Made by a program: the position numbers and the translations under genes
In this document: one piece after another, positions 5,537 through 33,509 of the stretch
How the letters are laid out: each line of letters begins with the position of its first letter
How positions within the stretch are numbered: the first letter of the stretch is position 1
The notes under the pieces: generated by a model
Told to the model about the DNA's origin: nothing
What the model saw: only the letters and a program-made list of their open reading frames with translations
Databases searched by the model: none
IMG/VR virus record: IMGVR_UViG_2541047839_000005
From: a virus
Taxonomy: Duplodnaviria > Heunggongvirae > Uroviricota > Caudoviricetes
DNA length: 39,762 nt
Direction: 5' to 3' (one strand)

Positions 5537-6400
5537 TCATTTCGCATCTACAATAAATAACCTGTTTATCTGGCCTTTTTTAACAGTAGCCTTTGCGGTT
5601 ATAGTGAATACTGCAGATGGATCACCTTTGGTTGATATATATGCACTAAGAGCTCTAATATACGGGTTATTCTTCTTTCCTGCAGCTGGATCGCTAATTT
5701 CAGCAGTGATTCTCTTTTTTGAGTCATCACCATCTAAAATTATTTTAGCTGTCATATTTTGTGCATCAAATTCTGTAAGAAAAGCACGATACTCACGAAG
5801 ACCGAGAACTTCATCATCATCAAGCCTATCAATTTCAGCTTTATCTCTCTCATTAACTTTTAGAAGGCAGCCGTCAACATTTGTTGCAACACTTATCTGA
5901 TCGCAAGTATTACCAATAGGTGATACTGCCTGCCTTACAGAGGGGCGAAGCTCTACAGCCATTCGGTCAATCAAAGAGATCAACTTATCAATGGTTCCAG
6001 CATCCTTGTTTCCTAGTGCCTCTATGGCCTTTTCAAGTGACTGCTGCAAAGCTTTCATTTCATCTTTCTTGTTAGAATTTCTCGCAAAAATATATTGTAG
6101 TATTGCGCCAAGTATAGTTGCGGCGATCCCCGAGAACAACTGGTTCTGAGTGGCGAAGTTAAGAACTGCTTCAAGAGTAAAGCAGTTAGCTTTTGCTTCG
6201 CGTGCGTAAACCTTAACTTCCTGATAATTAATGTATTTACTATATTTTTGTGTAACAGAGAAAGAAGCTGCTGTTGAGAGAACTTTAGAAAAACCCTTTA
6301 GGGATTCTCCTAGGCAGTTCAAATCTATTTCATGATTTAAAGCATCTTTTCCGTCATACCTAAGAGAGATTTTTATATCCTGTAAAGCGTCACAATCCAT
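5537..6400 (-). CDS. hypothetical single-pass membrane protein downstream of cI (rexAB position)
   Basis: 287-aa ORF co-oriented with cI and 66 bp downstream of it. One hydrophobic helix ([18 protein letters not shown]). Visibly more AT-rich than cI. No family recognised. Confidence 0.6.
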
Positions 6401-6466: not shown

Positions 6467-7159
6467 TTATCCATGTTTCCTGTACGTCTGGGGCATGCTC
6501 CCAATAACCTTACCGAAGATGAACACCCGGTTCATCTCGTCTTTCTCGATCGGGTCCCACGGTGAGTAGCTCTTGTTATCAGAGATAACCAGCAGCTTAT
6601 CCTTCATCATTTGCAGGCGCTTTACATGGGCGGTGTCGTCGTACAGAAACGCATAGATGCCATCACCGTCGAAAGATTTAACCGTGATATCAACGAACAG
6701 CAGATCACCTGGTTCGATCGTTCCTGACATGCTGTCACCACGCACGTTAATGATGCGGATATTTTCCGCCTTCCTGCCATCGAACATGTGACGAGCATCG
6801 TCAAACGAGTACTCAACCGAGCGTAGGACTTCTACAAACTCACGGTTGATGACTCCCGGCCCAGCACTGACTTCTATATCAAGAACGTCAATCTTGAAGT
6901 ATTTGGAATGGTTGACAGTAGGCTTCCCTGATTGTTGACCGTCATTTCTCATCGGGCCTATGCCTGATGAGAGCCACTCTGTTCGAACACCCAATGCATT
7001 AGCTATTTCAACAATTTTTGTTGAGCCGCGCGCGTTGCCGCTTGTCAGTCTCCAGATTGTGGGTTGAGCTACGCCAGACGCCTTTGCAAGAGCGCCTTGA
7101 GACATCCCAGATTGTTCCATCGCTAGGTTTAAGCGATCAGCAAGAGTTTCTTTTTTCAT
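6467..7159 (-). CDS. cI: CI-type prophage repressor (HTH_XRE plus S24 LexA-like peptidase domain)
   Basis: N-terminal HTH (LAMEQSGMSQGALAKASGVAQPTIWRL). C-terminal S24 motifs (VRGDSMSGTIEPGDLLFVD ... KRL). The ORF is open to 7216, but a promoter-like TTGACC/TATAAA lies just upstream of ATG 7159, suggesting a near-leaderless start as for lambda cI. Confidence 0.85.
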   Translation of the reverse strand: MKKETLADRLNLAMEQSGMSQGALAKASGVAQPTIWRLTSGNARGSTKIVEIANALGVRTEWLSSGIGPMRNDGQQSGKPTVNHSKYFKIDVLDIEVSAGPGVINREFVEVLRSVEYSFDDARHMFDGRKAENIRIINVRGDSMSGTIEPGDLLFVDITVKSFDGDGIYAFLYDDTAHVKRLQMMKDKLLVISDNKSYSPWDPIEKDEMNRVFIFGKVIGSMPQTYRKHG

Positions 7160-7269
7160 AAGTTTTAATTTATACGCTTGCGTATTGATGGTCAAAACAC
7201 GTTTTGCTATTGCCATGGTTAATACGCATTGCTATTATTCATTCATTGTAATACCAATAGGAATTGATA
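7160..7269. promoter_or_regulatory. immunity-region divergent promoter/operator region (pRM/pR-like)
   Basis: Intergenic region between divergent cI and cro-like genes. Contains inverted repeat ATACGC-tt-GCGTAT (7172..7185) and further ATACGC/TTGCTATT motifs. Confidence 0.5.
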
Positions 7270-7497
7270 ATGACAAATCAAACCATTCAACTCGCAATCA
7301 GTATTACAGGTAGTCAAAAACGACTGGCAGATCTATGCGGTGTAGCCCAGCCCACTGTTTGGCGTTGGCTACACGGTGGCGGAATTGATGCCCGCTATGT
7401 AATGAAAATTGTCTCAGCCACTGGTGGAAAGATTAAGCCAGCAGATATTCGTCCCGACCTCGCACCATTGTTTAACGCGAGTAATTCTGCCGCCTAA
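7270..7497 (+). CDS. cro: Cro-like HTH repressor (YdaS-like)
   Basis: 75-aa protein with HTH (QKRLADLCGVAQPTVWRW), divergent from cI. AGGA Shine-Dalgarno about 10 nt upstream of ATG 7270. Confidence 0.75.
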   Translation: MTNQTIQLAISITGSQKRLADLCGVAQPTVWRWLHGGGIDARYVMKIVSATGGKIKPADIRPDLAPLFNASNSAA

Positions 7498-9083: not shown

Positions 9084-9781
9084 AAAACATCGCCGCACAG
9101 ATGATTAACTTTGACCGTGAGCAGATGCGTCGGATCGCCAACAACATGCCGGAACAGTACGACGAAAAGCCTCAGGTACAGCAGGTAGCGCAGATCATCA
9201 ATGGTGTGTTCAGCCAGTTACTGGCAACTTTCCCGGCGAGCCTGGCTAACCGGGACCAGAACGAACTGAACGAAATCCGCCGCCAGTGGGTTCTGGCTTT
9301 CCGGGAAAACGGGATCACCACAATGGAACAGGTTAACGCAGGAATGCGCGTAGCCCGTCGGCAGAATCGACCATTCCTGCCATCACCCGGGCAGTTTGTT
9401 GCATGGTGCCGTGAAGAAGCATCCGTTATTGCCGGACTGCCAAACGCCAGCGAGCTGGTTGATATGGTTTACGAGTATTGCCGGAAGCGTGGCCTGTATC
9501 CGGATGCAGAGTCTTATCCGTGGAAATCAAACGCGCACTACTGGCTGGTTACTAGCCTGTACCAGAATATGCGGGCCAATGCGCTTACTGATACGGAATT
9601 ACGGCGCAAGGCTGCCGATGAACTGACTTGTATGACCGCGCGAATTAACCGTGGTGAGGCGATCCCTGAACCAGTAAAACAACTTCCTGTTATGGGCGGT
9701 AGACCTCTAAATCGTGCACAGGCTCTGGCGAAGATCGCAGAAATTAAAGCTAAGTTCGGACTGAAAGGAGCAAGTGTATGA
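9080..9781 (+). CDS. P: replication protein P (DnaB helicase loader)
   Basis: 233 aa, near-identical to lambda P (MKNIAAQMINFDREQMRRIANNMPEQYDEKPQVQQVAQIINGVF...). Confidence 0.95.
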   Translation: MKNIAAQMINFDREQMRRIANNMPEQYDEKPQVQQVAQIINGVFSQLLATFPASLANRDQNELNEIRRQWVLAFRENGITTMEQVNAGMRVARRQNRPFLPSPGQFVAWCREEASVIAGLPNASELVDMVYEYCRKRGLYPDAESYPWKSNAHYWLVTSLYQNMRANALTDTELRRKAADELTCMTARINRGEAIPEPVKQLPVMGGRPLNRAQALAKIAEIKAKFGLKGASV

Positions 9782-10080
9782 CGGGCAAAGAGGCAATTAT
9801 TCATTACCTGGGGACGCATAAGAGCTTCTGTGCACAGGACGTTGCCGCGGTAACAGGCGCAACCGTAACCAGCATAAATCAGGCTGCGGCTAAAATGGCG
9901 CGGGCAGGAATCCTGGTCGTTGATGGTAAGGTCTGGCGAACGGTGTATTACCGGTTCGCTACCAGAGAAGAACGGGAAGGAAAGGTGAGCACGAATCTGA
10001 TTTTTAAGGAGTGTCGCCAGAGTGCCGCGATGAAACGCTTATTGAGGGTATATAAAAGAACATCAATGGGTACACAATGA
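9778..10080 (+). CDS. ren: Ren protein
   Basis: MTGKEAIIHYLGTHKSFCAQDVAAVTGATVTSINQAAAKMARAGILVVDGKVWRTVYYRFATREEREGK closely matches lambda Ren. Confidence 0.9.
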   Translation: MTGKEAIIHYLGTHKSFCAQDVAAVTGATVTSINQAAAKMARAGILVVDGKVWRTVYYRFATREEREGKVSTNLIFKECRQSAAMKRLLRVYKRTSMGTQ

Positions 10081-10147
10081 TGAAACAGGTGAGTTGATTT
10101 CAAACTGTAGTACAATTCTCTCCAGTTTGAACAGGAAAGAATATGCT

Positions 10148-10480
10148 ATGAACCCTTATATTTATCTTGGTGGTGCAATACTTGCAGAGGTCATTGGTAC
10201 AACCTTAATGAAGTTTTCAGAAGGTTTTACACGGTTATGGCCATCTGTTGGTACAATTATTTGTTATTGTGCATCATTCTGGTTATTAGCTCAGACGCTG
10301 GCTTATATTCCTACAGGGATTGCTTATGCTATCTGGTCAGGAGTCGGTATTGTCCTGATTAGCTTACTGTCATGGGGATTTTTCGGCCAACGGCTGGACC
10401 TGCCAGCCATTATAGGCATGATGTTGATTTGTGCCGGTGTGTTGGTTATTAATTTATTGTCACGAAGCACACCACATTAA
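10148..10480 (+). CDS. emrE: SMR-family multidrug efflux transporter EmrE
   Basis: 110 aa from MNPYIYLGGAILAEVIGTTLMKFSEGF, matching E. coli EmrE (a known DLP12 cargo gene). Four TM helices. Confidence 0.9.
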   Translation: MNPYIYLGGAILAEVIGTTLMKFSEGFTRLWPSVGTIICYCASFWLLAQTLAYIPTGIAYAIWSGVGIVLISLLSWGFFGQRLDLPAIIGMMLICAGVLVINLLSRSTPH

Positions 10481-10510
10481 AAATAATTTGTTTCTAAACG
10501 ACTAAAATAT

Positions 10511-10551
10511 GGAGGCTCTTATATTTATATGAGCCTCGTTTTATGCTTTTT
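10511..10551 (+). terminator. rho-independent terminator downstream of emrE
   Basis: GAGGCTC-ttatatttatat-GAGCCTC followed by GTTTTATGCTTTTT. Confidence 0.6.
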
Positions 10552-10736
10552 GTTAATGTCTTTATTTTTTTATGTATTCTTTTGTGCTTTCAAGATTATG
10601 GCGTAAGAAAATTGCAATACGATTATTGTTGTATATTCAAGATAATGTGACCTTAATTGTCTTTTTAAATAAAAATTAAACAAAAATTATATCTCACCAC
10701 TAAGGTTTATAAAAGCATACGTTAGCAGGTGTCACC

Positions 10737-12263
10737 ATGAAAAAAGCCATAGCATATATGCGATTTTCATCACCAGGTCAGATGTCTGGCGACTCATTAA
10801 ACCGACAGAGAAGACTTATTGCTGAATGGTTAAAGGTAAATAGTGATTATTATCTTGATACCATAACATATGAAGATTTAGGATTAAGTGCATTCAAAGG
10901 AAAGCATGCACAATCAGGAGCTTTTTCGGAATTTTTAGATGCTATAGAGCATGGTTATATATTGCCAGGAACTACATTGTTAGTTGAAAGTCTGGACAGA
11001 CTTTCAAGAGAAAAAGTCGGTGAAGCGATTGAGCGTCTGAAATTGATTTTGAATCACGGTATTGATGTTATAACTCTTTGCGATAATACAGTCTATAATA
11101 TTGACTCTTTGAATGATCCATATTCATTAATAAAAGCCATACTTATAGCACAAAGGGCAAATGAAGAAAGCGAGATAAAGTCAAGTCGGGTTAAATTATC
11201 ATGGAAGAAAAAACGGCAGGATGCACTGGAGTCAGGCACGATTATGACGGCGTCTTGTCCGAGATGGCTCTCCTTAGATGACAAAAGAACGGCTTTTGTT
11301 CCAGACCCCGACAGGGTGAAAACTATTGAGCTAATTTTTAAACTCAGGATGGAAAGGCGCTCATTGAATGCAATAGCCAAGTATTTAAATGATCATGCTG
11401 TAAAGAATTTCTCAGGAAAAGAAAGTGCATGGGGACCTTCTGTAATTGAAAAATTATTAGCGAATAAAGCTCTGATAGGTATATGCGTACCTTCATATCG
11501 TGCAAGAGGTAAAGGAATAAGTGAAATCGCTGGCTATTATCCCAGAGTCATATCAGATGATTTGTTTTACGCTGTGCAGGAAATTCGGTTGGCACCTTTT
11601 GGTATTAGCAATAGTAGCAAAAATCCTATGTTGATAAATCTACTTCGAACAGTTATGAAGTGCGAGGCTTGTGGTAATACCATGATTGTTCATGCGGTAT
11701 CTGGAAGTTTGCATGGCTATTATGTTTGTCCGATGAGAAGACTGCATCGATGTGACAGGCCATCAATAAAGAGAGATTTGGTTGATTATAATATCATTAA
11801 TGAGTTGCTTTTTAATTGTAGTAAAATCCAACCAGTTGAAAACAAGAAAGATGCTAATGAAACTTTAGAGTTGAAAATTATTGAGCTCCAGATGAAAATT
11901 AATAATTTAATTGCTGCATTATCTGTTGCGCCTGAAGTTACCGCTATAGCAGAAAAAATCAGAGTATTAGATAAGGAATTACGAAGGGCTTCTGTATCAT
12001 TAAAAACTTTGAAGAGTAAAGCGGTGAGCTCACTTGGTGATTTTCATGCTATTGACTTAACCAGTAAAAATGGGCGAGAGCTATGTCGTACACTTGCCTA
12101 TAAAACATTCGAAAAAATCATAATCAATACAGATAATAAAACCTGTGATATCTATTTTATGAATGGCATTGTTTTTAAACACTATCCTTTAATGAAAACA
12201 ATATCCGCCCAGCAGGCGATAAGTACTCTCAAATATATGGTTGATGGTGAGGTTTATTTTTGA
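10737..12263 (+). CDS. ybcK: large serine recombinase (YbcK-like)
   Basis: 508 aa. N-terminal resolvase/invertase catalytic domain (AIAYMRFSSPGQ ... SLDRLSR), recombinase domain, Cys-rich zinc ribbon (CEACGN...CPMRRLHRC), coiled-coil tail. Same size and position as DLP12 ybcK. Confidence 0.85.
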   Translation: MKKAIAYMRFSSPGQMSGDSLNRQRRLIAEWLKVNSDYYLDTITYEDLGLSAFKGKHAQSGAFSEFLDAIEHGYILPGTTLLVESLDRLSREKVGEAIERLKLILNHGIDVITLCDNTVYNIDSLNDPYSLIKAILIAQRANEESEIKSSRVKLSWKKKRQDALESGTIMTASCPRWLSLDDKRTAFVPDPDRVKTIELIFKLRMERRSLNAIAKYLNDHAVKNFSGKESAWGPSVIEKLLANKALIGICVPSYRARGKGISEIAGYYPRVISDDLFYAVQEIRLAPFGISNSSKNPMLINLLRTVMKCEACGNTMIVHAVSGSLHGYYVCPMRRLHRCDRPSIKRDLVDYNIINELLFNCSKIQPVENKKDANETLELKIIELQMKINNLIAALSVAPEVTAIAEKIRVLDKELRRASVSLKTLKSKAVSSLGDFHAIDLTSKNGRELCRTLAYKTFEKIIINTDNKTCDIYFMNGIVFKHYPLMKTISAQQAISTLKYMVDGEVYF

Positions 12264-12374
12264 GTAATAATCACTTTTTCAACCGTGCTATAGTAAGAAA
12301 GTTAGGTAAGTACAATAAAATTATCTATCCTGAACGAAGCGTCCTGAGCTATGGTTTTACTATAGGGACTGCCA

Positions 12375-12692
12375 ATGGATGCTGGCGTTCTCGTTCTAGC
12401 AGTTCAACAATCCCCAATCACAAAACAATTCACTGATAACGAACTTTGCACACTCGCCTGGTTATGGCGAGCAGGGAATGTGATGTTAATTGCCTACCAG
12501 AACGTTACTCATCTTCTTCAGGATGCGGAGCATGGTGAAGCTGGTCACTTCACTTCCATCGAGCAAGAATATCCCCAGATACTCAACAGAGCGCGAGCAA
12601 TCCTCGTCCGAGAAACGGCACATGTAAAACTTCAGCCGTGGCAGGATGATAAGTGGAGTCGAGTATTGCCGTATTTGCGTCAAATCTGTTAG
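12375..12692 (+). CDS. hypothetical protein
   Basis: 105-aa ORF between ybcK and the 309-aa cargo gene. No recognisable motif, so it may be non-coding. Confidence 0.3.
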   Translation: MDAGVLVLAVQQSPITKQFTDNELCTLAWLWRAGNVMLIAYQNVTHLLQDAEHGEAGHFTSIEQEYPQILNRARAILVRETAHVKLQPWQDDKWSRVLPYLRQIC

Positions 12693-12896
12693 GAGTATAG
12701 CCGCCAGCCATGAGTGTTGTATTAAAACAAGGATGTCTATATATGGGATAGCGAGAGTATGAATATCAGTTATTTTGAGAGTTAACTGATTGTGAAATTA
12801 GTTTTTTTCACAAACGAGTGGGGTTACTATGATGAGTGTTCTAATGCATAGGGAACACCTAATTTTTTCAATGAATTCAAATTGATAGGATCAAAA

Positions 12897-13826
12897 ATGG
12901 CACAACAGAGAACTACCTCCCTCAGATCCATACCTTTAGACTTAGATGTTAAGCAAGAGGCTGTCATTAACGGTATAGAAATGGGGGTACTCGATAACGG
13001 AATTCCGTACCTTACTCAGAATGGGTTGGCAAATGTTTGTGGTGTTCAGCGTTTGCGAATCAAGGAAATTACCGATGAGTGGGCTCAATCTGTTGAGAAC
13101 GGTATTTTCAAAAAAGGAAGAATGACTTTTATTGGTACATATCTTCTTAATGAAGGTTTTACAGATGAAAAACTTTATATACCAATAATTCGAAATGGTG
13201 TTGAGTACCATGCTTATCCAGATGTTGTATGCATGGCTATACTTGAATACTATGCCTTTGAAGCAAAACAAGCAGAAAGTGAGACTGCAATTAGATCTTA
13301 CAGAGAGCTTGCTAAAAAAGGCCTCAAGACATTTATATACGAGGCGCTAAAATATCAACCGGAGGACCCGTGGAGGCATTACCATGACAGAGTATCTTTA
13401 TTAAAAGATAAGGGAACCATACCTGATGGGTATTTCATTATATTTAATGAAATTGCAGGTATGATGGTAGATCTCATCAATGCTGGATTAGCGATTAATC
13501 AGCATACCGTACCTGATGGCAGTGTTGGTTCTTGCTGGGCGCGTCACTGGAAAGCAAAGGGGTTAGCAACAGAATTTGGAGAAAGAGTAGACTGTGAGCA
13601 TTATTACCCTGAAGATTTTCTTCAGGCAAGTTCCAATCCTCAGATCATTAATGCCTATCCTGATTCTGCATTGTCAGAGTTTCGTAGATGGTTTAAGCAT
13701 GAATATTTAACCACAAAGTTCCCACCGTATATTCTTAAAAAATCAAACGTGCTTCCTGGTGGTACAGAAGATGCTAATCGTCTGATAGAAGCTTTCAAAA
13801 AATCAGAGCTAGAAAATAAACCATAA
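12897..13826 (+). CDS. hypothetical cargo protein (309 aa), nin-region cassette
   Basis: ATG 12897 with AGGA about 6 nt upstream. AT-rich. Occupies the slot filled by ybcL/ybcM in K-12 DLP12. Family not recognised. Confidence 0.6.
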   Translation: MAQQRTTSLRSIPLDLDVKQEAVINGIEMGVLDNGIPYLTQNGLANVCGVQRLRIKEITDEWAQSVENGIFKKGRMTFIGTYLLNEGFTDEKLYIPIIRNGVEYHAYPDVVCMAILEYYAFEAKQAESETAIRSYRELAKKGLKTFIYEALKYQPEDPWRHYHDRVSLLKDKGTIPDGYFIIFNEIAGMMVDLINAGLAINQHTVPDGSVGSCWARHWKAKGLATEFGERVDCEHYYPEDFLQASSNPQIINAYPDSALSEFRRWFKHEYLTTKFPPYILKKSNVLPGGTEDANRLIEAFKKSELENKP

Positions 13827-14022
13827 TTGTTTTTTGGCTTTTGATTTTACATAATCATTTTGCCATAATCATGTCATCGGAGCCTGAACAACTCCGGTGA
13901 CTTCTGCGCTAAACGGGGACGTTTATGCGCACATACAATCCAAACTCTCTTCTCCCTTCACAGATGCAGAGATGCACCTGCGATTTTTTGCATCCAGCGT
14001 TTGACCTCTGCGGAGGTGAAGC

Positions 14023-14478
14023 GTGAATCTCCCACAAGATGGCATCAAATTACATCGCGGTAACTTCACCGCTATCGGTCGGCAGATCCAGCCTTATCTG
14101 GAGGAGGGCAAATGCTTTCGCATGGTGCTTAAACCGTGGCGTGAGAAACGCAGTCTTTCCCAGAATGCACTCAGCCACATGTGGTACAGCGAAATCAGTG
14201 AATACCTCATCAACAGGGGTAAAACGTTCGCCACTCCAGCTTGGGTAAAAGATGCTCTCAAACACACATATCTCGGTTATGAAACCAAAGACCTGGTTGA
14301 TGTCGTAACCGGTGATATCACCACTATCCAGTCGTTACGCCATACCTCCGATCTTGATACCGGAGAGATGTATGTCTTCCTGTGTAAGGTTGAAGCCTGG
14401 GCGGTGAATATTGGCTGCCACCTGACTATTCCGCAGAGCTGCGAGTTCCAGCTGCTCCGTGACAAGCAGGAGGCGTAA
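14023..14478 (+). CDS. ybcN: YbcN-like protein (DLP12 nin region)
   Basis: 151 aa, [61 protein letters not shown] matches remembered YbcN. GTG start. Confidence 0.8.
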
Positions 14479-14648
14479 TGGCTACACCGCTTATTCGTGT
14501 CATGAACGGACACATCTACAGAGTATCAAATCGTCGTAAGCGTAAGCCTGAGCCGAAGCCATCCGAAATACCAACACTGCTCGGATATACCGCTAGCCTG
14601 GTTGATAAAAAATGGTTGCGACTGGCAGCAAGGAGGAATCATGGCTGA
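14478..14648 (+). CDS. ninE: NinE protein
   Basis: 56-aa [59 protein letters not shown], below the ORF-track cut-off. Start overlaps the ybcN stop. Conserved nin-region position. Confidence 0.7.
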   Translation: MATPLIRVMNGHIYRVSNRRKRKPEPKPSEIPTLLGYTASLVDKKWLRLAARRNHG

Positions 14649-15511: not shown

Positions 15512-15868
15512 ATGCGTGATATGTATGAAGTAATGGATCGTTGGGGAGCTTGGGCTGCTTCAGACAATAGCGGAGTGGACTGGCAGCCGATAGCGGCTGG
15601 TTTCAAGGGACTTTTACCTCATGGCAAAAAGTCACGGATTCAGTGTGATGATGACGAAGGCATCATGATAGACAGTTGTGTGGCTCGGTTGAGAAGGTAT
15701 AAACCAGAGGAATATGAGCTCATCATCGCCCACTTTGTTATCGGTATCTCATTACGCACTATTGCGAAGAAGAGAAAATGCTCTGATGGCACAATTAGGA
15801 AGGAACTGCAAACTGCAATGGGGTTTGTTGACGGCTGTTTAGCAATGTTAGCTTATAGTATGGCATAA
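15512..15868 (+). CDS. quuD: late-gene antiterminator Q (QuuD-like)
   Basis: MRDMYEVMDRWGAWAAS...WQPIAAGFKGLLP... resembles phage-82/DLP12-type Q. Position is between rusA/ylcG and the lysis cassette. GGAGAAAG Shine-Dalgarno. Confidence 0.7.
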   Translation: MRDMYEVMDRWGAWAASDNSGVDWQPIAAGFKGLLPHGKKSRIQCDDDEGIMIDSCVARLRRYKPEEYELIIAHFVIGISLRTIAKKRKCSDGTIRKELQTAMGFVDGCLAMLAYSMA

Positions 15869-17062
15869 AAAATAAAATAGATTTACTGCCGATTTTTCAA
15901 AAAAGACTGGGAACTGTTTATATCCAACGTAAATAAGGCCTCCATAAAACATGGCTGATGCGAGATATTTAACAGTTCTCATCCTTTTTTTAGCTTTATC
16001 AATCAAACCTGTAATGCTACTCTTAATACTATCTGCATTATCTTTGATTTCTTTATTTTCTTCAAACTTTAAATACTTATCGAAAGCGGACTCCACTCGA
16101 GAACGTAAGTTGTCGAATGTTTCATTGAATATCTCAATAGAAATGTAATTGACTTTTTTTATCATCCAAAGTCCTGCGATAATCAATATTGCTTCGGTTG
16201 TTTCATTAGCCTTCACTAAGCCACCAGCTGCTATTAATGCACCGGGAATAGTCAATGCTTTTGTCTGATTAGATGATATGAATTCGTTAATTTTACTCGT
16301 GAACTCAAGATTTTTCTCATCGAGTTCGTTAAGAATTTTATTTACAGAAAACCTCTTTGTGTAAATCTCATATAGTTCATCATATTTTTTCCTGACGAGT
16401 TCAGTAGAGTTAAGCAAGTCAAAGAAATTGAACGTACCATTTGCTTTAAATACTTCGTTTATGGCTGAGCGTATAACGAGCTTGCGCTCGCTTTTGTGTA
16501 AATCATTGATTTTTATTGTGTCGAGAAGCTCCTTTATAATTTCATATTTAAGAGACGAGTTCGATAAGCGATTAATCTCGCTATATTGTAAAAAATGCGT
16601 GAGTTCGACTGTATAACTTTTGTCTTCATTGGTGAAAAATAAGACAGAGCAGTCACTGTTATGATGATCAGCAATTAATGAAAGGATATCTTTCCACATA
16701 AAGAAAATATGGATTTTTTCGATGCTTTCATTCTTAGAAGTAGGGAGTATTAACGGCGTTCCGATGATATAATTTTTCGGAAGAGCGTTTTGGGTGTTTA
16801 CTCTAGACCAAAAAGACTCAACATTCTCATAAATTATAGCATCATCCCAAGATGAAGCTTGGCGATCTAGCCAAATTTCATTATTTTCGATGCAGGTTGT
16901 TGCCTTTTTATAACCTATAGATTGTAACAGTCTAATTATTTCAGAACTATTTACAATAACAATGCTTTCTTCAAGACTTATGACAGTGTAGTAGCCCTCA
17001 ACTCTGCTTGAGGCTCCGTTAATAATCTGCGCTAATCTTGATAAGTCATCAGCAATTGTCAT
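15848..17062 (-). CDS. hypothetical membrane protein, second gene of the Q-to-holin cargo operon
   Basis: 404 aa. About 260-aa soluble N-terminal region, then hydrophobic helices (ALTIPGALIAAGGLV, AILIIAGLWMI, LASAMFYGGLIYVGY). Start ATG 17062 lies 2 nt after the upstream gene's stop. Very AT-rich. Confidence 0.65.
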   Translation of the reverse strand: MTIADDLSRLAQIINGASSRVEGYYTVISLEESIVIVNSSEIIRLLQSIGYKKATTCIENNEIWLDRQASSWDDAIIYENVESFWSRVNTQNALPKNYIIGTPLILPTSKNESIEKIHIFFMWKDILSLIADHHNSDCSVLFFTNEDKSYTVELTHFLQYSEINRLSNSSLKYEIIKELLDTIKINDLHKSERKLVIRSAINEVFKANGTFNFFDLLNSTELVRKKYDELYEIYTKRFSVNKILNELDEKNLEFTSKINEFISSNQTKALTIPGALIAAGGLVKANETTEAILIIAGLWMIKKVNYISIEIFNETFDNLRSRVESAFDKYLKFEENKEIKDNADSIKSSITGLIDKAKKRMRTVKYLASAMFYGGLIYVGYKQFPVFFEKSAVNLFYFLCHTIS

Positions 17063-17064
17063 TA

Positions 17065-18239
17065 TTAGCTGTCTCTATATCTTTTGAGTTCATCATAATT
17101 TGCCTGACTCAATTTTATCACAATTTCGCATTTGTTGTCAGTGAGAATTACAGGCTTATTTGACTTTTCGTCTCCAATAGCTCCACGCATTATTTTCAAC
17201 TTAAAATTATTGTCGTTATCTGCCACTTCAATTGTAAGCGCGCTTTCAGCTGCTTTAGGAGTTGGTTCAAATTGAGGGTCAATCTGGAAACCATTAAGAT
17301 TAACAAAATCGACAAACGTTCCCTTACATTTGTGTGAATCAGTCAGGCATGAGTCAATTATTTTTGAAATATCCTCTATCTTAACGGACTTATTTCCGTG
17401 TTTATCTTTTGATTTTTTTCCAGTAAGGATTTAACTTCATTGTCAATAGTATCACGCAGTACACGACCGAGTGAGTTTTTACTAGCAAAAATATCTATAG
17501 CACTGAATAATTGCTGAATGCTTCTTTTATTGTCCGAATCATGTCGGCAACCTAATGAGTCTTTGAAAAAATCGCTTTTAGATTTACCTTGCAAGAAATG
17601 TACATATGAGTCACCCTTGTTTTCTGGATAACTGGCTTCGAATAAAGTTAAATCGAACATCGCAGCCTGCCGTAAGGCATCGGTATTAATTGGATTTAAT
17701 CTTGTTGGGGTCAACTTATCCGAATCAAAGTCATAGGCGCTTTGTTTATCAACCATTACGATTAGAAGTTTCCCCAAATCCTCTGGTTCGGTAGACTTAT
17801 AGTGGATGAAAACAACGCTCCCCCCCTGAAGTTGGGCAACTCTCGATTCGTTATTAGCATTATGTTTAAGCTTCTCTATTATAGCTCTAGATAAATCAAT
17901 GAATTCATTATTCTTATTAATGTATTTTTTTAGGATCGTAGGAATGGATGAAGGGTTGTGATCTGAGTCTAGGAAGTTATGAAATTTGTTTTTTCGGCTA
18001 AATTTTTTCTCAATTCTGGTTATGAATTCAGATGTGACTTCATTTTTTAGATCCCAAACTTCACCTAATCGATAATCAAATGCTCTTGAATCATTTTTTT
18101 CAAGATTTGCTGTTACAGCACCAATAGGAAAGTACGATTGTTTGCCCAGCACTACAACATGAGGCGTGGCACCGCATTTATCGCAAGCTACAGTTGGGTC
18201 GTCAAGAACATTGCCACATTCTAAACAAGTTATATCCAT
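17065..18239 (-). pseudogene. zinc-ribbon plus NdpA/YejK-like protein, reading frame broken at a homopolymer
   Basis: N-terminal CxxC..CxxC zinc ribbon (CLECGN...CDKCG). Central region resembles remembered nucleoid-associated YejK (GGSVVFIHY...LLIVMVD; YVHFLQGKSKSDFFKDSLG). The ORF stops at 17376, but a second frame stays open from the T7 run (plus 17411..17417) to TAA 17065..17067 and encodes a YejK-like C-terminus. Confidence 0.6.
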
Positions 18240-27139: not shown

Positions 27140-27384
27140 ATGTCGATGTACACAACCGCCCAACTGCTGGCGGCAAATGAGCAGAAATTTAAGTTTGATC
27201 CGCTGTTTCTGCGTCTCTTTTTCCGTGAGAGCTATCCCTTCACCACGGAGAAAGTCTATCTCTCACAAATTCCTGGACTGGTAAACATGGCGCTGTACGT
27301 TTCGCCGATTGTTTCCGGTGAGGTTATCCGCTCCCGTGGCGGCTCCACCTCTGAATTTACGCCGGGATATGTCAAGCCGAAGCA
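27140..27384 (+). pseudogene. E: major capsid protein E, 5' fragment (codons 1 to about 82) truncated by island insertion
   Basis: MSMYTTAQLLAANEQKFKFDPLFLRLFFRESYPFTTEKVYLSQIPGLVNMALYVSPIVSGEVIRSRGGSTSEFTPGYVKPKH matches lambda E to the KPKH codons. The sequence then diverges into island DNA and stops at 27415. Confidence 0.85.
27375..27384 (+). repeat. attL core of the inserted island (AGCCGAAGCA)
   Basis: 10-bp sequence repeated at 38263..38272. Both copies sit exactly where identity to the lambda E gene ends and resumes. Confidence 0.6.
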
Positions 27385-27547
27385 CTTAGCATGGCTTTCT
27401 GAGGCTTTCGTGTAGTTGCTGGTTTTTACACTTAATCTTTTGATAATAAAGAATAAGTTTATCTGGTGCTTTCACTGAATTTTCCTCGTTATCTGTGTGT
27501 TGCAATCATCTCTGTATTGCAGCTTGTATTGCTTTTTGGGGCTAAAA

Positions 27548-28783
27548 ATGGCTGGCGAGAACAAACTGAGCGACAAAGCGCTTAAAGGATATCTGGGGAA
27601 ACCCAGAGAAAAGCAGATCACCATTGCTGATGGAAAGGGGCTTTCTATTCGTGTGAGTACTAAAGGGGCTGTGAGCTTTGTTTTCTTCTACAGGTTAGCA
27701 GGTGGCCGGGCTGCTCCGGTCTGGCTAACGTTGGGTAAATATCCTGATATGTCACTCAAACAGGCAAGGGAAAAGCGCGACGAGTGCCGTGGTTGGTTGG
27801 CTGACAAACGTGATCCGCGTATCCAGATTAAGATTCAGGCTGAAGAACGCTTAAAGCCGGTCACTGTGGAGGATGCACTAAATTACTGGTATGAAAATTA
27901 CTGTAAGGTGCGTCGTAAAACTCATGCTGTAACGCTTGGCAGATTTCGAAAGCATATCTTTCCCTATATCGGTCATTTGCCCGTAAATGACACTCACCTA
28001 TATGAATGGCTGGACTGTTTTGACCGAATTAAACGTAATGCACCAGTTATGGCGGCGTATGTTTTTTCTGACACTAAATTAGCTCTTCGTTTTTGTCGGG
28101 TACGCCAGTACGCGACGTGTGATGCTTTAAAGGATTTGCGCATGAGTGATGTGGGGCAGATTGCAGGTAAGCGGGATCGGGTTCTGGATGAAGCCGAACT
28201 CGGCCAGCTCTGGAAGGCAATTTTTGTCGAGCCTGATTTAAAACTAATGTCTGAATACACGCGAAAAATGTTTGTGCTTTGTACAGTATTTGGATGTCGA
28301 ATGAGTGAAGCCCGATTATCAGAATGGAGCGAATGGGATCTCGAAAGTTGGGTTTGGACTGTACCAAAAGATCACTCAAAAACTGGTGTTGAAATCGTCA
28401 GACCAGTACCTGAAATTCTACGACAGTGGGTAACGGATGTTCACGAAGAGACAAAACATACTGGTTATGTGCTGGGAAGTCTGCGAATTAGAGAAAGCGT
28501 AAGCAAGATTGGGGGGAAAATCGGTAAACGTTTGGGCCATGAAAAACAATGGTCACTACACGACCTTAGAAGAACGCTATCTACTCATCTAAGTGATCTC
28601 GGTGTTGAATTTTATGTAGTAGAACAACTGTTAGGCCATGCGCTACCTGGCGTGGCAGGTGTTTACAACCGGAGTAAGTTTATGGCTAAAAAACTGGATG
28701 CTCTGGAACTCTGGACTACATATCTCAATAGCATCGCAGGTGCTGATTCAAAAGTGATAATCCTCAAACAAAAGGTTGGTTAA
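27548..28783 (+). CDS. int: island integrase (P4-family tyrosine recombinase)
   Basis: About 411 aa from MAGENKLSDKALKGYLGKPREKQITIADGKGLSIRVSTKG (arm-binding N-terminal domain). C-terminal HDLRRTLSTHLSDLGVEFYVVEQLLGHALPGVAGVYNRS carries the catalytic motifs. Adjacent to the att junction. Confidence 0.85.
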   Translation: MAGENKLSDKALKGYLGKPREKQITIADGKGLSIRVSTKGAVSFVFFYRLAGGRAAPVWLTLGKYPDMSLKQAREKRDECRGWLADKRDPRIQIKIQAEERLKPVTVEDALNYWYENYCKVRRKTHAVTLGRFRKHIFPYIGHLPVNDTHLYEWLDCFDRIKRNAPVMAAYVFSDTKLALRFCRVRQYATCDALKDLRMSDVGQIAGKRDRVLDEAELGQLWKAIFVEPDLKLMSEYTRKMFVLCTVFGCRMSEARLSEWSEWDLESWVWTVPKDHSKTGVEIVRPVPEILRQWVTDVHEETKHTGYVLGSLRIRESVSKIGGKIGKRLGHEKQWSLHDLRRTLSTHLSDLGVEFYVVEQLLGHALPGVAGVYNRSKFMAKKLDALELWTTYLNSIAGADSKVIILKQKVG

Positions 28784-28784
28784 C

Positions 28785-29012
28785 ATGAAAAAAATGGCAA
28801 TTGTTGATAAAAAGGGTCTGGAGTACATTCCTAACATTGACCGAATGATCCGTGAGAAAGAATGTCGGGAGCTAACCACTCTTGCGAACAGCACACGCTG
28901 GAAGCTGGAGAAGGAAGGAAAATTTCCTAAGCGGATCAAGATTGGTTCCACTGCTGTTGCATATCGTCTTTCAGAAGTGCAGGCATGGATTCGAGGTGAG
29001 TGGGTAGTTTAA
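28785..29012 (+). CDS. alpA: AlpA-family transcriptional regulator / excisionase-like protein
   Basis: Small HTH protein immediately after int (IDRMIREKECRELTTLANSTRWKLEKEGKFPKRIKIGSTAVAYRLSEVQAWI), the usual int-alpA arrangement of P4-like elements and PICIs. Confidence 0.7.
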   Translation: MKKMAIVDKKGLEYIPNIDRMIREKECRELTTLANSTRWKLEKEGKFPKRIKIGSTAVAYRLSEVQAWIRGEWVV

Positions 29013-29037
29013 ATTATCTCAGAATAAAATATTATGA

Positions 29038-29073
29038 ATTACTGATTTGAGAATTTGTACTCAAATCAGTAAT
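29038..29073. terminator. bidirectional hairpin terminator between alpA and the island cargo gene
   Basis: Perfect inverted repeat (core ACTGATTTGAG / CTCAAATCAGT, extending to about 14 bp) with an 8-nt loop, flanked by T-rich sequence on the minus strand. Confidence 0.55.
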
Positions 29074-29081
29074 AACATTCT

Positions 29082-29618
29082 TTATAAGAGATTAAATCCA
29101 AATAAAGAGTAATCATATACCGGGGTGCATTGCATTCCACTGAATATGCTGATGTTTTTTTCTGTTTCTATCCTTTTTTCAATAAGTTGTTGTATATTTT
29201 TACAGTACAATTTGTGTGTGATGTTATTATCGTAAGCCTGATATAGCAACGTCAATGTTGACGCTAGGAAACATACAGATAAAATTAAAGTAACATATGC
29301 GGTTTTTTTATTTTTTGTCCATGATCTATTTGTTTGTGAAATATAAAGAATTCTGAGGTGGATAATGGTGAGAGACAATAGCAGGCCACTCAATAAAATA
29401 AGTATTGGGTTTGCGTATTTTATTAATGGTTGAGAGCAAAAAACTATTATAGCTCCTGTGACTGCGTATGAGAAAAAGGAGTAATTAAACTTCTTACTCC
29501 TTCTCTCAAGTATTTTAATTTCATCTTGTGTGGGGGTTTTAGATGCCTCTAATATAAGTTTATTGAATGTTTCTGTTATCTTGTTTTTTGTGTTTGTGGC
29601 TATTTTTTTTAGATTCAT
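29082..29618 (-). CDS. hypothetical multi-pass membrane protein (island accessory cargo)
   Basis: 178 aa with about 3 hydrophobic helices, very AT-rich, isolated by AT-rich non-coding DNA and a hairpin terminator. No family recognised. Confidence 0.55.
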   Translation of the reverse strand: MNLKKIATNTKNKITETFNKLILEASKTPTQDEIKILERRSKKFNYSFFSYAVTGAIIVFCSQPLIKYANPILILLSGLLLSLTIIHLRILYISQTNRSWTKNKKTAYVTLILSVCFLASTLTLLYQAYDNNITHKLYCKNIQQLIEKRIETEKNISIFSGMQCTPVYDYSLFGFNLL

Positions 29619-29968
29619 AGCATTCTAACTCCCTTAACTTATTTATTACTTTCTCTTTATGATAAGAGAGGGGAATGACTTGGTAAAGTGATTTGTCATT
29701 AATAATGATAATCCTTGCGATAAATATTTCTGCAAGTTATTTATCTGTTTGTTGCTATCTTGTTAAGCGTTGGGTGTGGTTTATGTTTGGAGCGACTTTA
29801 TTTAATCGTGATTTTATGGATTTATATTTATATCCTGTAAGATAAGCGCATGTTAGTTCAGGAGTAGTGTCAGATAAAATTATTCGGAGTAGAACTACCT
29901 TTTCTGTTTATTGCCAGTATTTACATAGCAATGCGCCGTAGTTACTCACATCACGGCGCTGATACTAA

Positions 29969-30271
29969 TTATTCAGATTCTTTGGCTTTACGCCGCTGGA
30001 GTTCTTCACGAGCGACGGCTACGAGTTGCCCGATTTCCTCCGCTGCCTTGATGCCGATTTGTTCGACCTTAGCTAAGGCATCCAGTGAAGACACGAGGGG
30101 ATTTTCTCCGCTTCCTTCTGCCTGGCGGCGGGCGATCTCACCGCGCATGGCGGTTACTATGAATCCGGCGTTGCTCTCGCCGTCCAGTTTTACGGATTCC
30201 ATGCCCTCCATAACATCGTGGGGAACCCTGATCGTTGTCATTTGCGATTTTGCATTTTTGTATACAGACAT
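29969..30271 (-). CDS. putative small DNA-binding regulator (ribbon-helix-helix-like)
   Basis: 100-aa ORF divergent from the island early operon. MTTIRVPHDVMEGMES resembles an RHH beta-strand. Candidate island repressor. Weak call. Confidence 0.4.
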   Translation of the reverse strand: MSVYKNAKSQMTTIRVPHDVMEGMESVKLDGESNAGFIVTAMRGEIARRQAEGSGENPLVSSLDALAKVEQIGIKAAEEIGQLVAVAREELQRRKAKESE

Positions 30272-30289
30272 AGTTAATCACCAATTTGT

Positions 30290-30395
30290 TATGTGTATAT
30301 CACTATACACAAAAGTGATATATAAAAACACTTGCAATGTATATCACCACAATATAATGTATATCTCACATTATGGTCGCTATGTATCTCACAAT
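30290..30395. promoter_or_regulatory. island divergent promoter region with repeated operator-like motifs
   Basis: Five copies of TGTATATC(T)CAC / GTGATATA in both orientations between the divergent genes 29969..30271 (-) and 30480..30845 (+). Confidence 0.5.
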
Positions 30396-30479
30396 GATCG
30401 ATTCATAAAAACGACGAAACCCGGCAGTGCGCGAACACTAACCGGGCTTCTAACCAAACCGTTAAACGAGGTAACGATT

Positions 30480-30845
30480 ATGGCTGGAACACAGCATACC
30501 CAAACTCACCCTAAATTTATATACACCTTTCTGGCACTACACCACGACCGCATGGCAGATGGAGCAACTACGGTACATGTAGCCGCTGACACGCTGGTTG
30601 ATGCCCGCAAGATGGTTAAGGAGATGGGCTATACTGCGGCTTTCTGGAAAGGGCGTGAAGAAAACACGCTGTTTATTCAGAAATGCGAAAACAATTTCAT
30701 CTGGCGTTTTATCGCCCTGAGTACGGCACAACCGCGCGTGATTCACATCGTGGCCACCAGCGAACAGGAAGCCCGCCAGCAATCCCCGGCTGGTTGCGTG
30801 AGGGTATTCGCCGCCCGTATTCGTCAGGAGGTATGCCGTGCTTAA
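30480..30845 (+). CDS. hypothetical protein (first gene of the island rightward operon)
   Basis: 121 aa from ATG 30480 with GAGGT Shine-Dalgarno. The longer ORF-track entry 29931..30845 is antisense to the divergent gene in its 5' half and is probably not real. Confidence 0.5.
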   Translation: MAGTQHTQTHPKFIYTFLALHHDRMADGATTVHVAADTLVDARKMVKEMGYTAAFWKGREENTLFIQKCENNFIWRFIALSTAQPRVIHIVATSEQEARQQSPAGCVRVFAARIRQEVCRA

Positions 30846-31023
30846 AACCTTCCGTGTATTTGCCCGAGCGGTTAACCCACGAGGCCACACAATTGGTATC
30901 ACTCAGAACGTGAAGGCTGTTAATGTTCAGACGGCTATTGCTGTGGTGAGAAGCGAATCATCAGAATATGGCTTATCACAAGTCATTATTTCAGCAGTGT
31001 ATGAATTAAAAGAGGTGCATTAA
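30838..31023 (+). CDS. hypothetical small protein
   Basis: 61-aa ORF tightly packed in the island operon (overlapping stop/start). Confidence 0.35.
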   Translation: MLKTFRVFARAVNPRGHTIGITQNVKAVNVQTAIAVVRSESSEYGLSQVIISAVYELKEVH

Positions 31024-31436: not shown

Positions 31437-31453
31437 GTCGAGGAATAAATAAT

Positions 31454-33501: not shown

Positions 33502-33509
33502 AAAATGGC

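What the first reader, a model, noticed from the sequence alone, without database searches (positions are those of the whole stretch)
10148..13826. Variable cargo cassette beside a large serine recombinase in the nin region
emrE and the ybcK-like serine recombinase are followed not by the ybcL/ybcM genes of K-12 DLP12 but by a possible 105-aa ORF and an AT-rich 309-aa protein of unrecognised family. The region is bounded by the conserved ren and ybcN genes. The recombinase-adjacent slot therefore appears to be an exchangeable cargo site, and the 309-aa protein is a candidate defence or fitness factor.
Basis: partly seen in the sequence, partly recalled or inferred. Interest (0 to 1): 0.55.

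Follow-up and report, generated by a model that had tools for sequence, protein, structure and literature searches.

The report
BstA defence gene in prophage hotspot
The "unrecognised" 309-aa protein is BstA, a known prophage abortive-infection defence protein, sitting in a genuinely exchangeable cargo slot of a lambda-like prophage, and the neighbouring serine recombinase appears to be a bystander.

Summary
The 309-aa protein is not an unknown family. It is a full-length BstA (PADLOC E=4e-121, PHROG E=2e-136, 40% identical to the tested BstA of Salmonella phage BTP1). BstA-carrying lambda-like prophages at tRNA-Arg in E. coli are already published. The 105-aa ORF is the C-terminal remnant of a 202-aa Bro-N/P22AR_C antirepressor-like gene.

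The slot is a real hotspot, with at least 8 alternative contents behind a 98-100% identical ybcK. The same slot with the same sharp right junction also exists in prophages without ybcK. The left breakpoints differ, no att-like repeats flank the cassette, and one cassette is 98-100% identical in ybcK+ and ybcK- backbones while its flanks diverge. Exchange by homologous recombination therefore fits better than recombinase action.

The placement is unusual, in the nin region rather than downstream of cI. The cassette carries its own promoter-like -10 box.

It also carries two copies of a motif 57 bp apart straddling the start codon. That 56/57-bp repeat pair occurs in 50 of 79 diverse BstA loci and matches the ends of the experimentally defined aba self-immunity element.

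The parts
9778..10080 (+). ren, the conserved left backbone gene
   Evidence: ORF; annotated 'protein ren' in the identical stretch of NZ_CP029747.1
10148..10480 (+). emrE (SMR efflux transporter), part of the AT-rich emrE-ylcJ-ybcK block
   Evidence: Pfam Multi_Drug_Res E=2e-35; phrog_1395
10529..10679 (+). ylcJ, annotated as frameshifted
   Evidence: PGAP annotation of the 100% identical stretch in L002
10737..12263 (+). ybcK, a large serine recombinase (508 aa) that looks intact but shows no detectable link to the cargo slot
   Evidence: Resolvase + Recombinase + Zn_ribbon_recom. 98-100% identical in 80 IMG/VR prophage contigs and 12 isolated coliphages. The slot varies with and without it.
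12375..12692 (+). 105-aa ORF, the C-terminal (P22AR_C) remnant of a 202-aa Bro-N/P22AR_C antirepressor-like gene. It is the left homology arm of the cargo slot.
   Evidence: Pfam P22_AR_C E=8e-14. It aligns to residues ~100-198 of the full-length genes of L006 and L011 at 78-82% identity, and no Bro-N part occurs anywhere in the window.
12693..13840 (+). bstA cassette: the sequence unique to this variant, between the end of the P22AR_C remnant and the conserved junction module
   Evidence: blastn breakpoints against 11 variant loci. Found at >=99% identity in 110 E. coli genomes.
12805..12833 (+). Candidate bstA promoter (-35 TTTTCA 12805-12810, 17-nt spacer, -10 TATGAT 12828-12833)
   Evidence: Consensus scan. 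The -10 box is conserved (TATCATA/TATTATA) in ~90%-identical relatives whose sequence further upstream is unrelated. Prediction only.
12850..12918 (+). Candidate aba (anti-BstA) self-immunity element. Copies AGGGAACACCT (12850-12860) and AGAGAACTACCT (12907-12918) lie 57 bp apart and straddle the bstA start codon.
   Evidence: Position -47/+10 and spacing 57 are conserved in 12 of 14 distinct ~90% relatives. The same 56/57-bp architecture occurs in 50 of 79 diverse BstA loci and at the ends of the experimentally defined BTP1 aba. On its own the window pair is weak (7 nt with 1 mismatch; background 0.126).
12897..13826 (+). bstA (309 aa), an abortive-infection defence protein
   Evidence: PADLOC BstA PDLC02356 E=3.8e-121 over 5-291 of 292 profile positions. 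phrog_6287 'BstA abortive infection system, replication inhibitor' E=1.9e-136. 40% identity over residues 3-308 to BstA-BTP1, E=5e-77.
13841..14026 (+). Conserved junction module 'J', the right boundary of every cargo variant. It comprises the promoter-like TTGATT-N6-AATCAT-N5-CATAAT (13841-13869), a 10-bp-stem hairpin (13873-13901) and a 33-aa ORF (13925-14026) whose stop overlaps the ybcN GTG start.
   Evidence: All variants become homologous exactly at TTGATT. The module is duplicated upstream of the full-length Bro-N/P22AR_C gene in ybcK-less loci. Its function is not tested.
14023..14478 (+). ybcN (NinB/Orf family), the conserved right backbone gene
   Evidence: phrog_72 E=2e-52; NCBIfam PRK09741

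Best explanation
Window 12693-13840 is a self-contained bstA 'moron' (an accessory gene with its own expression signals) lodged in a recombination hotspot of the nin region of a lambda-like prophage at the DLP12/argU site.

Shown:
- The 309-aa protein is a full-length member of the BstA family.
- The interval between the antirepressor-like gene remnant and the conserved junction module before ybcN holds at least 8 different contents in otherwise near-identical prophages.
- The same slot exists without ybcK.

Inferred from the published work on BstA-BTP1, BstA-Ec and BstA-Kp: BstA is made in the lysogen from the cassette's own promoter. When a foreign phage infects, BstA goes to the replicating phage DNA and blocks its replication. 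The infected cell dies without releasing progeny (abortive infection).

Inferred from the repeat signature: the prophage escapes its own BstA through an aba DNA element at about 12850-12918. This element has two copies of a motif 57 bp apart flanking the bstA start codon, probably a bipartite site recognised by BstA itself.

Inferred for cargo exchange: homologous recombination (RecA, or the prophage's own Red/Bet system) acts between co-resident lambdoid prophages. It uses the P22AR_C remnant on the left and the junction module plus ybcN on the right as homology arms. The serine recombinase YbcK belongs to a neighbouring, separately acquired AT-rich block (emrE-ylcJ-ybcK). That block replaced the 5' half of the antirepressor-like gene.
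For: BstA identity:
- PADLOC and PHROG full-length hits.
- 40% and 38% identity over the whole length to BstA-BTP1 and to the CL707 protein.
- PGAP labels the identical protein 'BstA C-terminal domain-containing protein' in several genomes.

Hotspot:
- Variants carry ybcL/ybcM, an alpha/beta hydrolase on the reverse strand, nothing, or 260-aa, 118-aa and 169-aa unknown proteins, or a HEPN pair.
- Census of 80 ybcK loci: 20, 15, 13, 12, 9, 3, 2, 1 and 1 for the different contents.

Independence from ybcK:
- The right junction is identical in ybcK-less loci.
- The 169-aa cassette is 98-100% identical between L009 (ybcK+) and L010 (ybcK-), with flanks at 80-90%.
- Spacer bases inside the junction module co-vary with the cargo.
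- ~91% BstA relatives lie in nin regions with no recombinase.
- E. coli genomes carry a median of 2 matching places, so partners for recombination are available.

Own expression signals and aba:
- A conserved -10 box and both motif copies sit in otherwise diverged upstream DNA.
- The family-wide spacing histogram peaks at 57 (37 loci) and 56 (13 loci), against 0-4 for every other spacing from 30 to 90.
- Shifted controls show no such peak.
- The BTP1 aba ends are CCCGCC repeats 56 bp apart and are required for function.

Published context: BstA was found only in lambda-like prophages at tRNA-Arg among E. coli hotspots (PMC10121019). The window starts at intD next to tRNA-Arg in the matching genome.
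Against: - No experiment exists on this allele. It is only 40% identical to the tested proteins and differs from the tested BstA-Ec (897 bp; primer site absent).
- It is not in the canonical place downstream of cI, where transcription in the lysogen is assured. Expression in the lysogen rests on a predicted promoter scoring 9 of 12.
- No intrinsic terminator follows the gene here, although relatives have one.
- The window's repeat pair is imperfect (one mismatch plus a 1-nt indel) and is not significant by itself.
- Homologous recombination is inferred from identity patterns and was not observed.
- The prophage's major capsid gene is interrupted by a 10.9-kb element. Self-immunity may therefore no longer be under selection in this copy.
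Confidence: 0.85

Rival explanations
1. YbcK is the engine of the slot. The large serine recombinase captures and swaps cassettes at a recognition site next to its gene.
For: - The cargo lies directly downstream of an apparently intact recombinase gene with all three domains.
- All ybcK loci share about 70 bp after the stop codon before they diverge.
- The right junction is razor-sharp and starts at an imperfect palindrome, TTGATT-N6-AATCAA.
Against: - The same right junction and the same cargo types occur without ybcK.
- There are five different left breakpoints.
- The palindrome occurs once in the slot, and homology breaks at its edge, not at its centre as serine-recombinase crossover would require.
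- No flanking direct or inverted repeats rise above chance.
- BstA relatives lie in nin regions without any recombinase.
Confidence: 0.04
2. emrE-ylcJ-ybcK plus the cargo is one nested integrative element. YbcK inserted it into the antirepressor-like gene, and the variable genes are that element's own accessory load.
For: - The whole stretch 10100-13900 is AT-rich relative to the backbone.
- The Bro-N/P22AR_C gene is truncated at the same point in all ybcK loci.
- The recombinase sits at one end of the block, as integrases usually do.
Against: - No 5' half of the disrupted gene lies on the other side. Only 67 bp separate ren from emrE, and tblastn finds no Bro-N fragment. This is therefore a replacement, not a clean insertion.
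- The P22AR_C gene plus cargo plus junction module exist as a unit in ybcK-less phages.
- YbcK relatives in the phage collections are either 98-100% identical in this same context or 30% identical or less, so no independent copies of such an element were seen.
Confidence: 0.06
3. The bstA copy here is a silent or decaying passenger that is not expressed in the lysogen or has lost a working aba. The locus would then currently give no defence.
For: - The gene sits in the early-right operon, which is repressed in a lysogen.
- The promoter is only predicted.
- No terminator follows the gene.
- The repeat pair is imperfect.
- The prophage has a disrupted capsid gene.
Against: - The ORF is intact and at least 99.8% conserved in about 110 genomes.
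- Every invariant position of the 13-protein family alignment is, by definition, also present in the window protein, which was one of the 13 rows.
- The -10 box and both repeat copies are conserved across relatives about 10% diverged in protein, while neighbouring DNA is not.
Confidence: 0.1

Closest known systems
BstA-BTP1 and its aba element (Salmonella phage BTP1; Owen et al. 2021, PMC8585504)
   Same: Same protein family over the full length (40% identity). Both are prophage-borne. Both have a pair of direct repeats 56-57 bp apart straddling the start codon.
   Different: BTP1 bstA lies directly downstream of cI and shares its transcript, whereas here it lies in the nin region behind its own predicted promoter. 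The repeat sequence differs (CCCGCC against AGrGAAC..ACC), as expected for cognate pairs. This allele is untested.
BstA-Ec (E. coli NCTC10963) / coliphage CL707 immunity-region ORF CL70704
   Same: An E. coli BstA with proven defence and cognate self-immunity. The CL707 locus contains the published BstA-Ec primer sequence and a 9-of-10 repeat 57 bp apart.
   Different: 38% identity only. The BstA-Ec gene is 897 bp (about 298 aa) by the published coordinates, and the CL707 ORF is 301 aa, against 309 aa here. It sits downstream of cI. The primer site is absent from the window.
BstA-carrying lambda-like prophages at the tRNA-Arg hotspot #32 (Hochhauser et al. 2023, PMC10121019)
   Same: Same kind of prophage and the same chromosomal site. 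This is very probably the same thing.
   Different: That paper counts the system per hotspot. In the passages retrieved by a term search for BstA, DLP12, lambdoid, serine recombinase, argU and prophage hotspot, it says nothing about the intra-prophage slot, its boundaries or the aba signature. I did not read the whole paper.
Phage morons and intra-phage defence hotspots (lambda rexAB slot; P2/P4 hotspots, Rousset et al. 2022, PMC9122126)
   Same: A fixed position between conserved phage genes holds alternative, AT-rich, independently expressed accessory or defence genes. Known defence genes occupy it in relatives: PD-Lambda-1/SNIPE in the adjacent slot and a HEPN pair in this one.
   Different: The position differs (ren to ninB/ybcN). 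The slot is bounded by an antirepressor-like gene and by a repeated promoter-like junction module. I did not find either described in the searched literature.
K-12 DLP12 ybcK-ybcL-ybcM-ybcN
   Same: Same backbone, same recombinase (97-98% nucleotide identity) and same right junction.
   Different: The cargo is ybcL/ybcM, the P22AR_C remnant is absent, and the left breakpoint is at 12302.

Membership tests
BstA abortive-infection proteins | Full-length sequence homology to characterised BstA | tested here: met
   PADLOC PDLC02356 E=3.8e-121 over 5-291 of 292 positions. phrog_6287 E=1.9e-136 over 2-303 of 304. BLASTP to BstA-BTP1 gives 40% identity over 3-308, E=5e-77.
BstA abortive-infection proteins | N-terminal KilA-N-like DNA-binding domain followed by a C-terminal domain | tested here: inconclusive
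   Pfam and NCBIfam give no hit. The alignment to BstA-BTP1 spans its residues 32-147, which Owen et al. assign to KilA-N. A weak PADLOC 'HTH' hit covers residues 30-155, E=2e-8. No structure was predicted and no solved relative exists.
BstA abortive-infection proteins | Encoded on a prophage | tested here: met
   It lies within a lambda-like prophage running from intD to the tail genes.
BstA abortive-infection proteins | Located directly downstream of the prophage repressor (typical, not universal) | tested here: not met
   The gene is in the nin region, about 5.7 kb from the cI-like gene (6467-7216, minus strand). The cI-downstream slot holds a DUF7946/DUF7947 protein instead. Its ~91% relatives are also in nin regions, whereas relatives at 74% identity or less sit behind cI-like genes.
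BstA abortive-infection proteins | Cognate aba DNA element overlapping the 5' end of the gene, with terminal direct repeats | tested here: inconclusive
   A motif pair at -47/+10, 57 bp apart, is conserved in the clade and sits at the family-typical position.
BstA abortive-infection proteins | Blocks replication of infecting phage DNA, with death of the infected cell | not testable with these tools
   Needs plaque, survival and DNA-replication assays.
Serine-recombinase-mobilised cassette or element | Recombinase recognition sites (imperfect palindromes or att half-sites) at both cassette boundaries | tested here: not met
   No repeats above chance. The TTGATT-N6-AATCAA palindrome occurs once in the slot, with 6 matches in the window against 3.45 expected. 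Homology breaks at its edge.
Serine-recombinase-mobilised cassette or element | Cargo exchange confined to loci that carry the recombinase, with constant junctions | tested here: not met
   The slot and cargo are shared with ybcK-less loci. There are five different left junctions.
Phage moron | Present or absent between two conserved genes of related phages, with deviant base composition | tested here: met
Phage moron | Own promoter and terminator | tested here: inconclusive
   A promoter-like site has a clade-conserved -10 box. There is no terminator in the window, although GC-rich hairpin plus T-run terminators follow the stop codon in relatives L024, L029 and L036.

The most novel reading that the evidence does not exclude
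[quoted passage not shown] On this reading aba is a bipartite DNA site with fixed spacing, whose unit often ends in CACC(C) at the 3' end and whose 5' part varies between lineages and sets cognate specificity. That would predict the aba of dozens of untested BstA homologues, including window 12850-12918. It would also make the unsolved question of how aba DNA silences BstA directly testable. Owen et al. describe the repeats only for BTP1, and I found no later paper on this.
Probability: 0.6. Interest if true: 0.55.

Novelty: new member of a known kind. Interest (0 to 1): 0.33.

Why it matters
For the finding as given, the value is a correction. A standard defence-system scan names the protein at once, and BstA-carrying lambda-like prophages at tRNA-Arg in E. 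coli are already in print.

Three things are added:
- A nucleotide-level map of a nin-region cargo hotspot. In relatives it also holds PD-Lambda-1/SNIPE, a HEPN pair and three unknown proteins (260, 118 and 169 aa) that become candidate defence genes by position.
- Evidence that recombinases next to defence genes can be bystanders.
- A family-wide sequence signature that predicts where the self-immunity (aba) element of each BstA lies. This could guide experiments on how a short DNA element switches off an abortive-infection protein.

Tried and rejected
- Direct and inverted repeats around the cassette were searched as possible recombinase sites. Only short chance matches appeared. One 15-nt inverted pair flanking ybcK (10838 / 12265) is not conserved in the K-12 variant.
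- The junction palindrome was searched elsewhere in the window. The one other 1-mismatch match (7264-7281) overlaps the cro start codon and is within chance expectation.
- A second copy of the junction module in the window: none.
- Rfam families in 9700-14600: nothing meaningful.
- Solved structures related to BstA: none.
- NCBIfam and Pfam models for BstA: no hit.
- Identity with the tested BstA-Ec: rejected, because the primer site is absent and the gene length differs.
- A Bro-N fragment upstream of emrE, which would indicate clean insertion of a ybcK element: none.
- Diverged YbcK relatives in other contexts: phage collections contain only 98-100% copies in this same context, or serine integrases at 30% identity or less.
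- PADLOC on the alternative cargo proteins: only the HEPN protein (weak PDC-M28A) and the slot-A protein (PD-Lambda-1) hit.
- No structure prediction was run. The diverse alignment came from fetched loci, which the tool does not accept, and family membership was already clear.
Full report
**1. What is there**

The window is a lambda-like prophage. It begins at intD next to tRNA-Arg in the best-matching genomes. It runs through exo/bet/gam, a cI-like repressor, O/P/ren, the nin genes, Q, lysis genes, and head and tail genes.

- emrE at 10148-10480
- ybcK at 10737-12263, with Resolvase, Recombinase and Zn-ribbon domains
- a 105-aa ORF at 12375-12692
- a 309-aa ORF at 12897-13826

It is bounded by ren (9778-10080) and ybcN (14023-14478). 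G+C falls to 0.27-0.42 between 10300 and 13900, against about 0.50 outside.

**2. Identity of the two 'unknown' ORFs**

The 309-aa protein matches the PADLOC BstA model over its whole length (E=3.8e-121). It also matches PHROG 6287, 'BstA abortive infection system, replication inhibitor' (E=1.9e-136).
- It is 40% identical over residues 3-308 to the characterised BstA of Salmonella phage BTP1.
- It is 38% identical to the BstA-Ec-like protein of coliphage CL707.
- It is not the tested BstA-Ec allele. That gene is 897 bp and its primer site is absent from the window.

Pfam, NCBIfam and PDB sequence searches give nothing. That explains why it looked unfamiliar.

The 105-aa ORF carries a P22AR_C domain. 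It aligns to residues ~100-198 of 202-aa Bro-N/P22AR_C antirepressor-like proteins found at the same place in related prophages. The Bro-N half is missing from the window, so this ORF is a remnant.

**3. The slot is real**

In 5426 complete E. coli genomes, 4504 match part of 9700-14500, but only 107 have this arrangement. The bstA cassette itself is at least 99% identical in 110 genomes.

Fetched variants with the same ybcK carry:
- ybcL/ybcM (K-12 type)
- a reverse-strand BD-FAE alpha/beta hydrolase
- almost nothing (O157 type)
- unknown proteins of 260, 118 or 169 aa

Among 80 IMG/VR prophage contigs with 98-100% identical YbcK, the contents were:

| Content | Contigs |
|---|---|
| ybcL/M | 20 |
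| 118-aa protein | 15 |
| 260-aa protein | 13 |
| 169-aa protein | 12 |
| hydrolase | 9 |
| BstA | 3 |
| O157-like | 2 |
| remnant only | 1 |
| other | 1 |
| incomplete | 4 |

**4. Boundaries**

The right boundary is the same to within 1-2 bp in every variant (window 13839-13841; 13822 in the HEPN variant).

Homology starts exactly at TTGATT-N6-AATCAA-N5-CATAAT. This is a promoter-like sequence whose -35 region is an imperfect palindrome. It is followed by a 10-bp-stem hairpin and a 33-aa ORF whose stop overlaps the ybcN GTG start. The non-consensus bases inside this module co-vary with the cargo. The true crossovers therefore lie further right.

The left boundary is not constant. It is at 12302 (K-12), 12329 (O157), 12548 (hydrolase), and 12680 or 12690 (the others).

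**5. The recombinase is not implicated**

Prophages without ybcK (L006/L012, L010/L011) have a full-length Bro-N/P22AR_C gene, then a cargo (a HEPN pair, or the same 169-aa gene), then the same junction module and ybcK-independent ybcN.
- In place of emrE-ylcJ-ybcK, L010/L011 carry PD-Lambda-1/SNIPE.
- In these loci the junction module is duplicated upstream of the antirepressor-like gene. The gene plus its cargo is therefore bracketed by direct repeats of 100-140 bp.
- The 169-aa cassette is 98-100% identical between a ybcK+ and a ybcK- backbone, while the flanks fall to 80-90% on the left and 88-96% on the right.
- No repeats or second palindrome flank the cassette in the window.
- The ~91%-identical BstA relatives in IMG/VR sit between ren/P-like and NinB/NinE-like genes of other lambdoid phages, among ordinary nin genes (DUF551, dATP/dGTP pyrophosphohydrolase, pol III theta, P63C) and with no serine recombinase.

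These patterns fit exchange by homologous recombination between lambdoid prophages. E. coli genomes carry a median of two matching places, and the prophage encodes Bet and Exo. YbcK looks intact and is carried by viable coliphages. Its role remains unknown.

**6. Anatomy of the bstA cassette**

Against the ~90% relatives, similarity begins about 75 nt upstream of the start codon, at a conserved -10 box (window TATGAT 12828-12833). It ends at the stop codon, where several relatives have a hairpin plus T-run terminator that the window lacks.

Within the 5' region, the best-conserved block is AGrGAACACC at -47. A second copy, AGAGAwCnACC, lies at +10. The spacing is 57 bp in 11 and 56 bp in 1 of the 14 distinct sequences compared.

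**7. The aba signature**

In BTP1 the 63-bp aba element spans -29 to +34. It needs its terminal CCCGCC direct repeats, which are 56 bp apart (PMC8585504).

I found 8-11-nt repeats at 56-57 bp straddling the start codon in CL707, Pseudomonas phage PseuP_222, Klebsiella phage RCIP0114, ETEC H10407 and several IMG/VR loci. In 16 loci the spacing histogram peaks at 57 (8 loci) and 56 (3 loci), with 2 or fewer elsewhere.

The result held in 79 further loci, mostly Proteobacteria with a few records titled as other groups:
- 9-nt repeats with at most 1 mismatch occur at spacing 57 in 37 loci and at 56 in 13.
- Every other spacing from 30 to 90 has 0-4 loci.
- Windows shifted by +300, +600 or -400 nt show no such peak.
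- The first copy lies at -39 to -50.
- Units reach 12-22 nt, often end in CACC(C), and differ between lineages.

The window's pair sits at the family-typical place. It is imperfect and is not significant alone (7 nt with 1 mismatch; background 0.126). I therefore give 12850-12918 as a candidate aba, not a demonstrated one.

**8. Mechanism**

By homology with the tested proteins, BstA made in the lysogen should block replication of infecting phage DNA, at the cost of the infected cell. The resident prophage would be spared by its own aba DNA (PMC8585504). All of this is inferred for the present allele.

The unusual point is position. Canonical bstA genes ride on the cI transcript. This clade sits in the early-right operon and must rely on its own promoter in the lysogen.

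**9. Comparison and novelty**

Hochhauser et al. (PMC10121019) already report that bstA in E. coli hotspots occurs only in lambda-like prophages at tRNA-Arg. The gene and its carrier are therefore known.

Two things were not found in the searched literature: the nin-region slot architecture and the family-wide repeat signature.

**10. Caveats**
- Promoter, aba and recombination mechanism are all predictions.
- The censuses are samples. The census is biased toward the window's YbcK allele.
- The prophage here carries a 10.9-kb insertion in its major capsid gene. It may not be able to complete a lytic cycle unless that element excises.

Noticed in passing
Window 12850-12918; loci L013-L018, L024-L054 and L057-L136 around the bstA start codons: Most BstA loci carry two copies of an 8-22-nt motif exactly 56 or 57 bp apart flanking the start codon. 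In 79 diverse loci, 37 have spacing 57 and 13 have spacing 56, against 0-4 for any other spacing from 30 to 90. The first copy lies at about -45. The unit often ends in CACC(C) and differs between lineages. This matches the ends of the experimentally defined BTP1 aba element, and I did not find it reported for other homologues.
   Followed up: yes
Window 13841-14026; L006 1333-1470; L011 2199-2302: A conserved ~170-bp junction module marks the right edge of every cargo variant. It has a promoter-like TTGATT-N6-AATCAA-N5-CATAAT, a 10-bp-stem hairpin and a 33-aa ORF overlapping the ybcN start. In ybcK-less prophages it is duplicated upstream of the Bro-N/P22AR_C gene, giving direct repeats around that gene plus its cargo. 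Its function is unknown.
   Followed up: partly
Window 27385-38262: A 10.9-kb element is inserted in the prophage's major capsid gene (gpE), flanked by a 10-bp direct repeat AGCCGAAGCA (27375-27384 and 38263-38272). It encodes a tyrosine integrase, a D5_N-type primase, SSB, its own capsid-E homologue, AlpA and a Nu1-like small terminase. This gene set resembles that of a phage satellite (PICI-like); I did not test that. Eleven complete E. coli genomes hold at least 80% of it. A relative (NZ_OZ547086.1) is annotated with TIR and Abi genes and again has 'major capsid protein (x2)' annotated under the match; I did not check where it is inserted.
   Followed up: partly
Window 15848-18239, minus strand, just downstream of the Q antiterminator: A 404-aa protein passes the NCBIfam equivalog cut-off for 'DS1_2_antiphage' (375 bits against 315). 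Next to it is an NA37 nucleoid-associated protein. Here that ORF is 287 aa, against 391 aa in strain 2016C-3878, and the aligned stretch is 1 nt shorter, so it may be frameshifted. This would be a second defence-type cargo site in the same prophage.
   Followed up: partly
Window 5537-6400, minus strand, directly downstream of the cI-like repressor (6467-7216): The canonical BstA/rexAB slot holds a 287-aa DUF7946/DUF7947 protein (phrog_5147, unknown function; weak PADLOC PDC-S42 hit, E=1.5e-4). The immunity region differs from that of the otherwise near-identical prophage in strain 2016C-3878.
   Followed up: partly
L001 6173-6955, L008 3897-4253, L009 3670-4179, L006 2795-3591: The alternative occupants of the same slot are proteins of 260, 118 and 169 aa with no Pfam or PADLOC hit (phrog_6544, 12412 and 1779, all of unknown function), plus a HEPN protein with a 133-aa partner. 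By position they are candidate defence or counter-defence genes.
   Followed up: partly
L010 1-2692 and L011 388-1890: In ybcK-less relatives, the place taken here by emrE-ylcJ-ybcK holds PD-Lambda-1/SNIPE. It is interrupted by IS5 in L010 and has an internal stop in L011. There are therefore two adjacent variable slots between ren and ybcN.
   Followed up: partly
Window 12793-12815: A palindrome, TGTGAAATTAGTTTTTTTCACA, overlaps the predicted -35 of the bstA promoter. It is not conserved in the ~90% relatives.
   Followed up: no
L013 5959-6891 and L014 5956-6885: Other E. coli bstA alleles (~67-76% nucleotide identity) sit as lone plus-strand genes between SNF2 and VRR-NUC or methyltransferase genes. 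They belong to an unrelated DNA-polymerase-encoding prophage integrated next to yfhL. bstA therefore moves between prophage types.
   Followed up: partly
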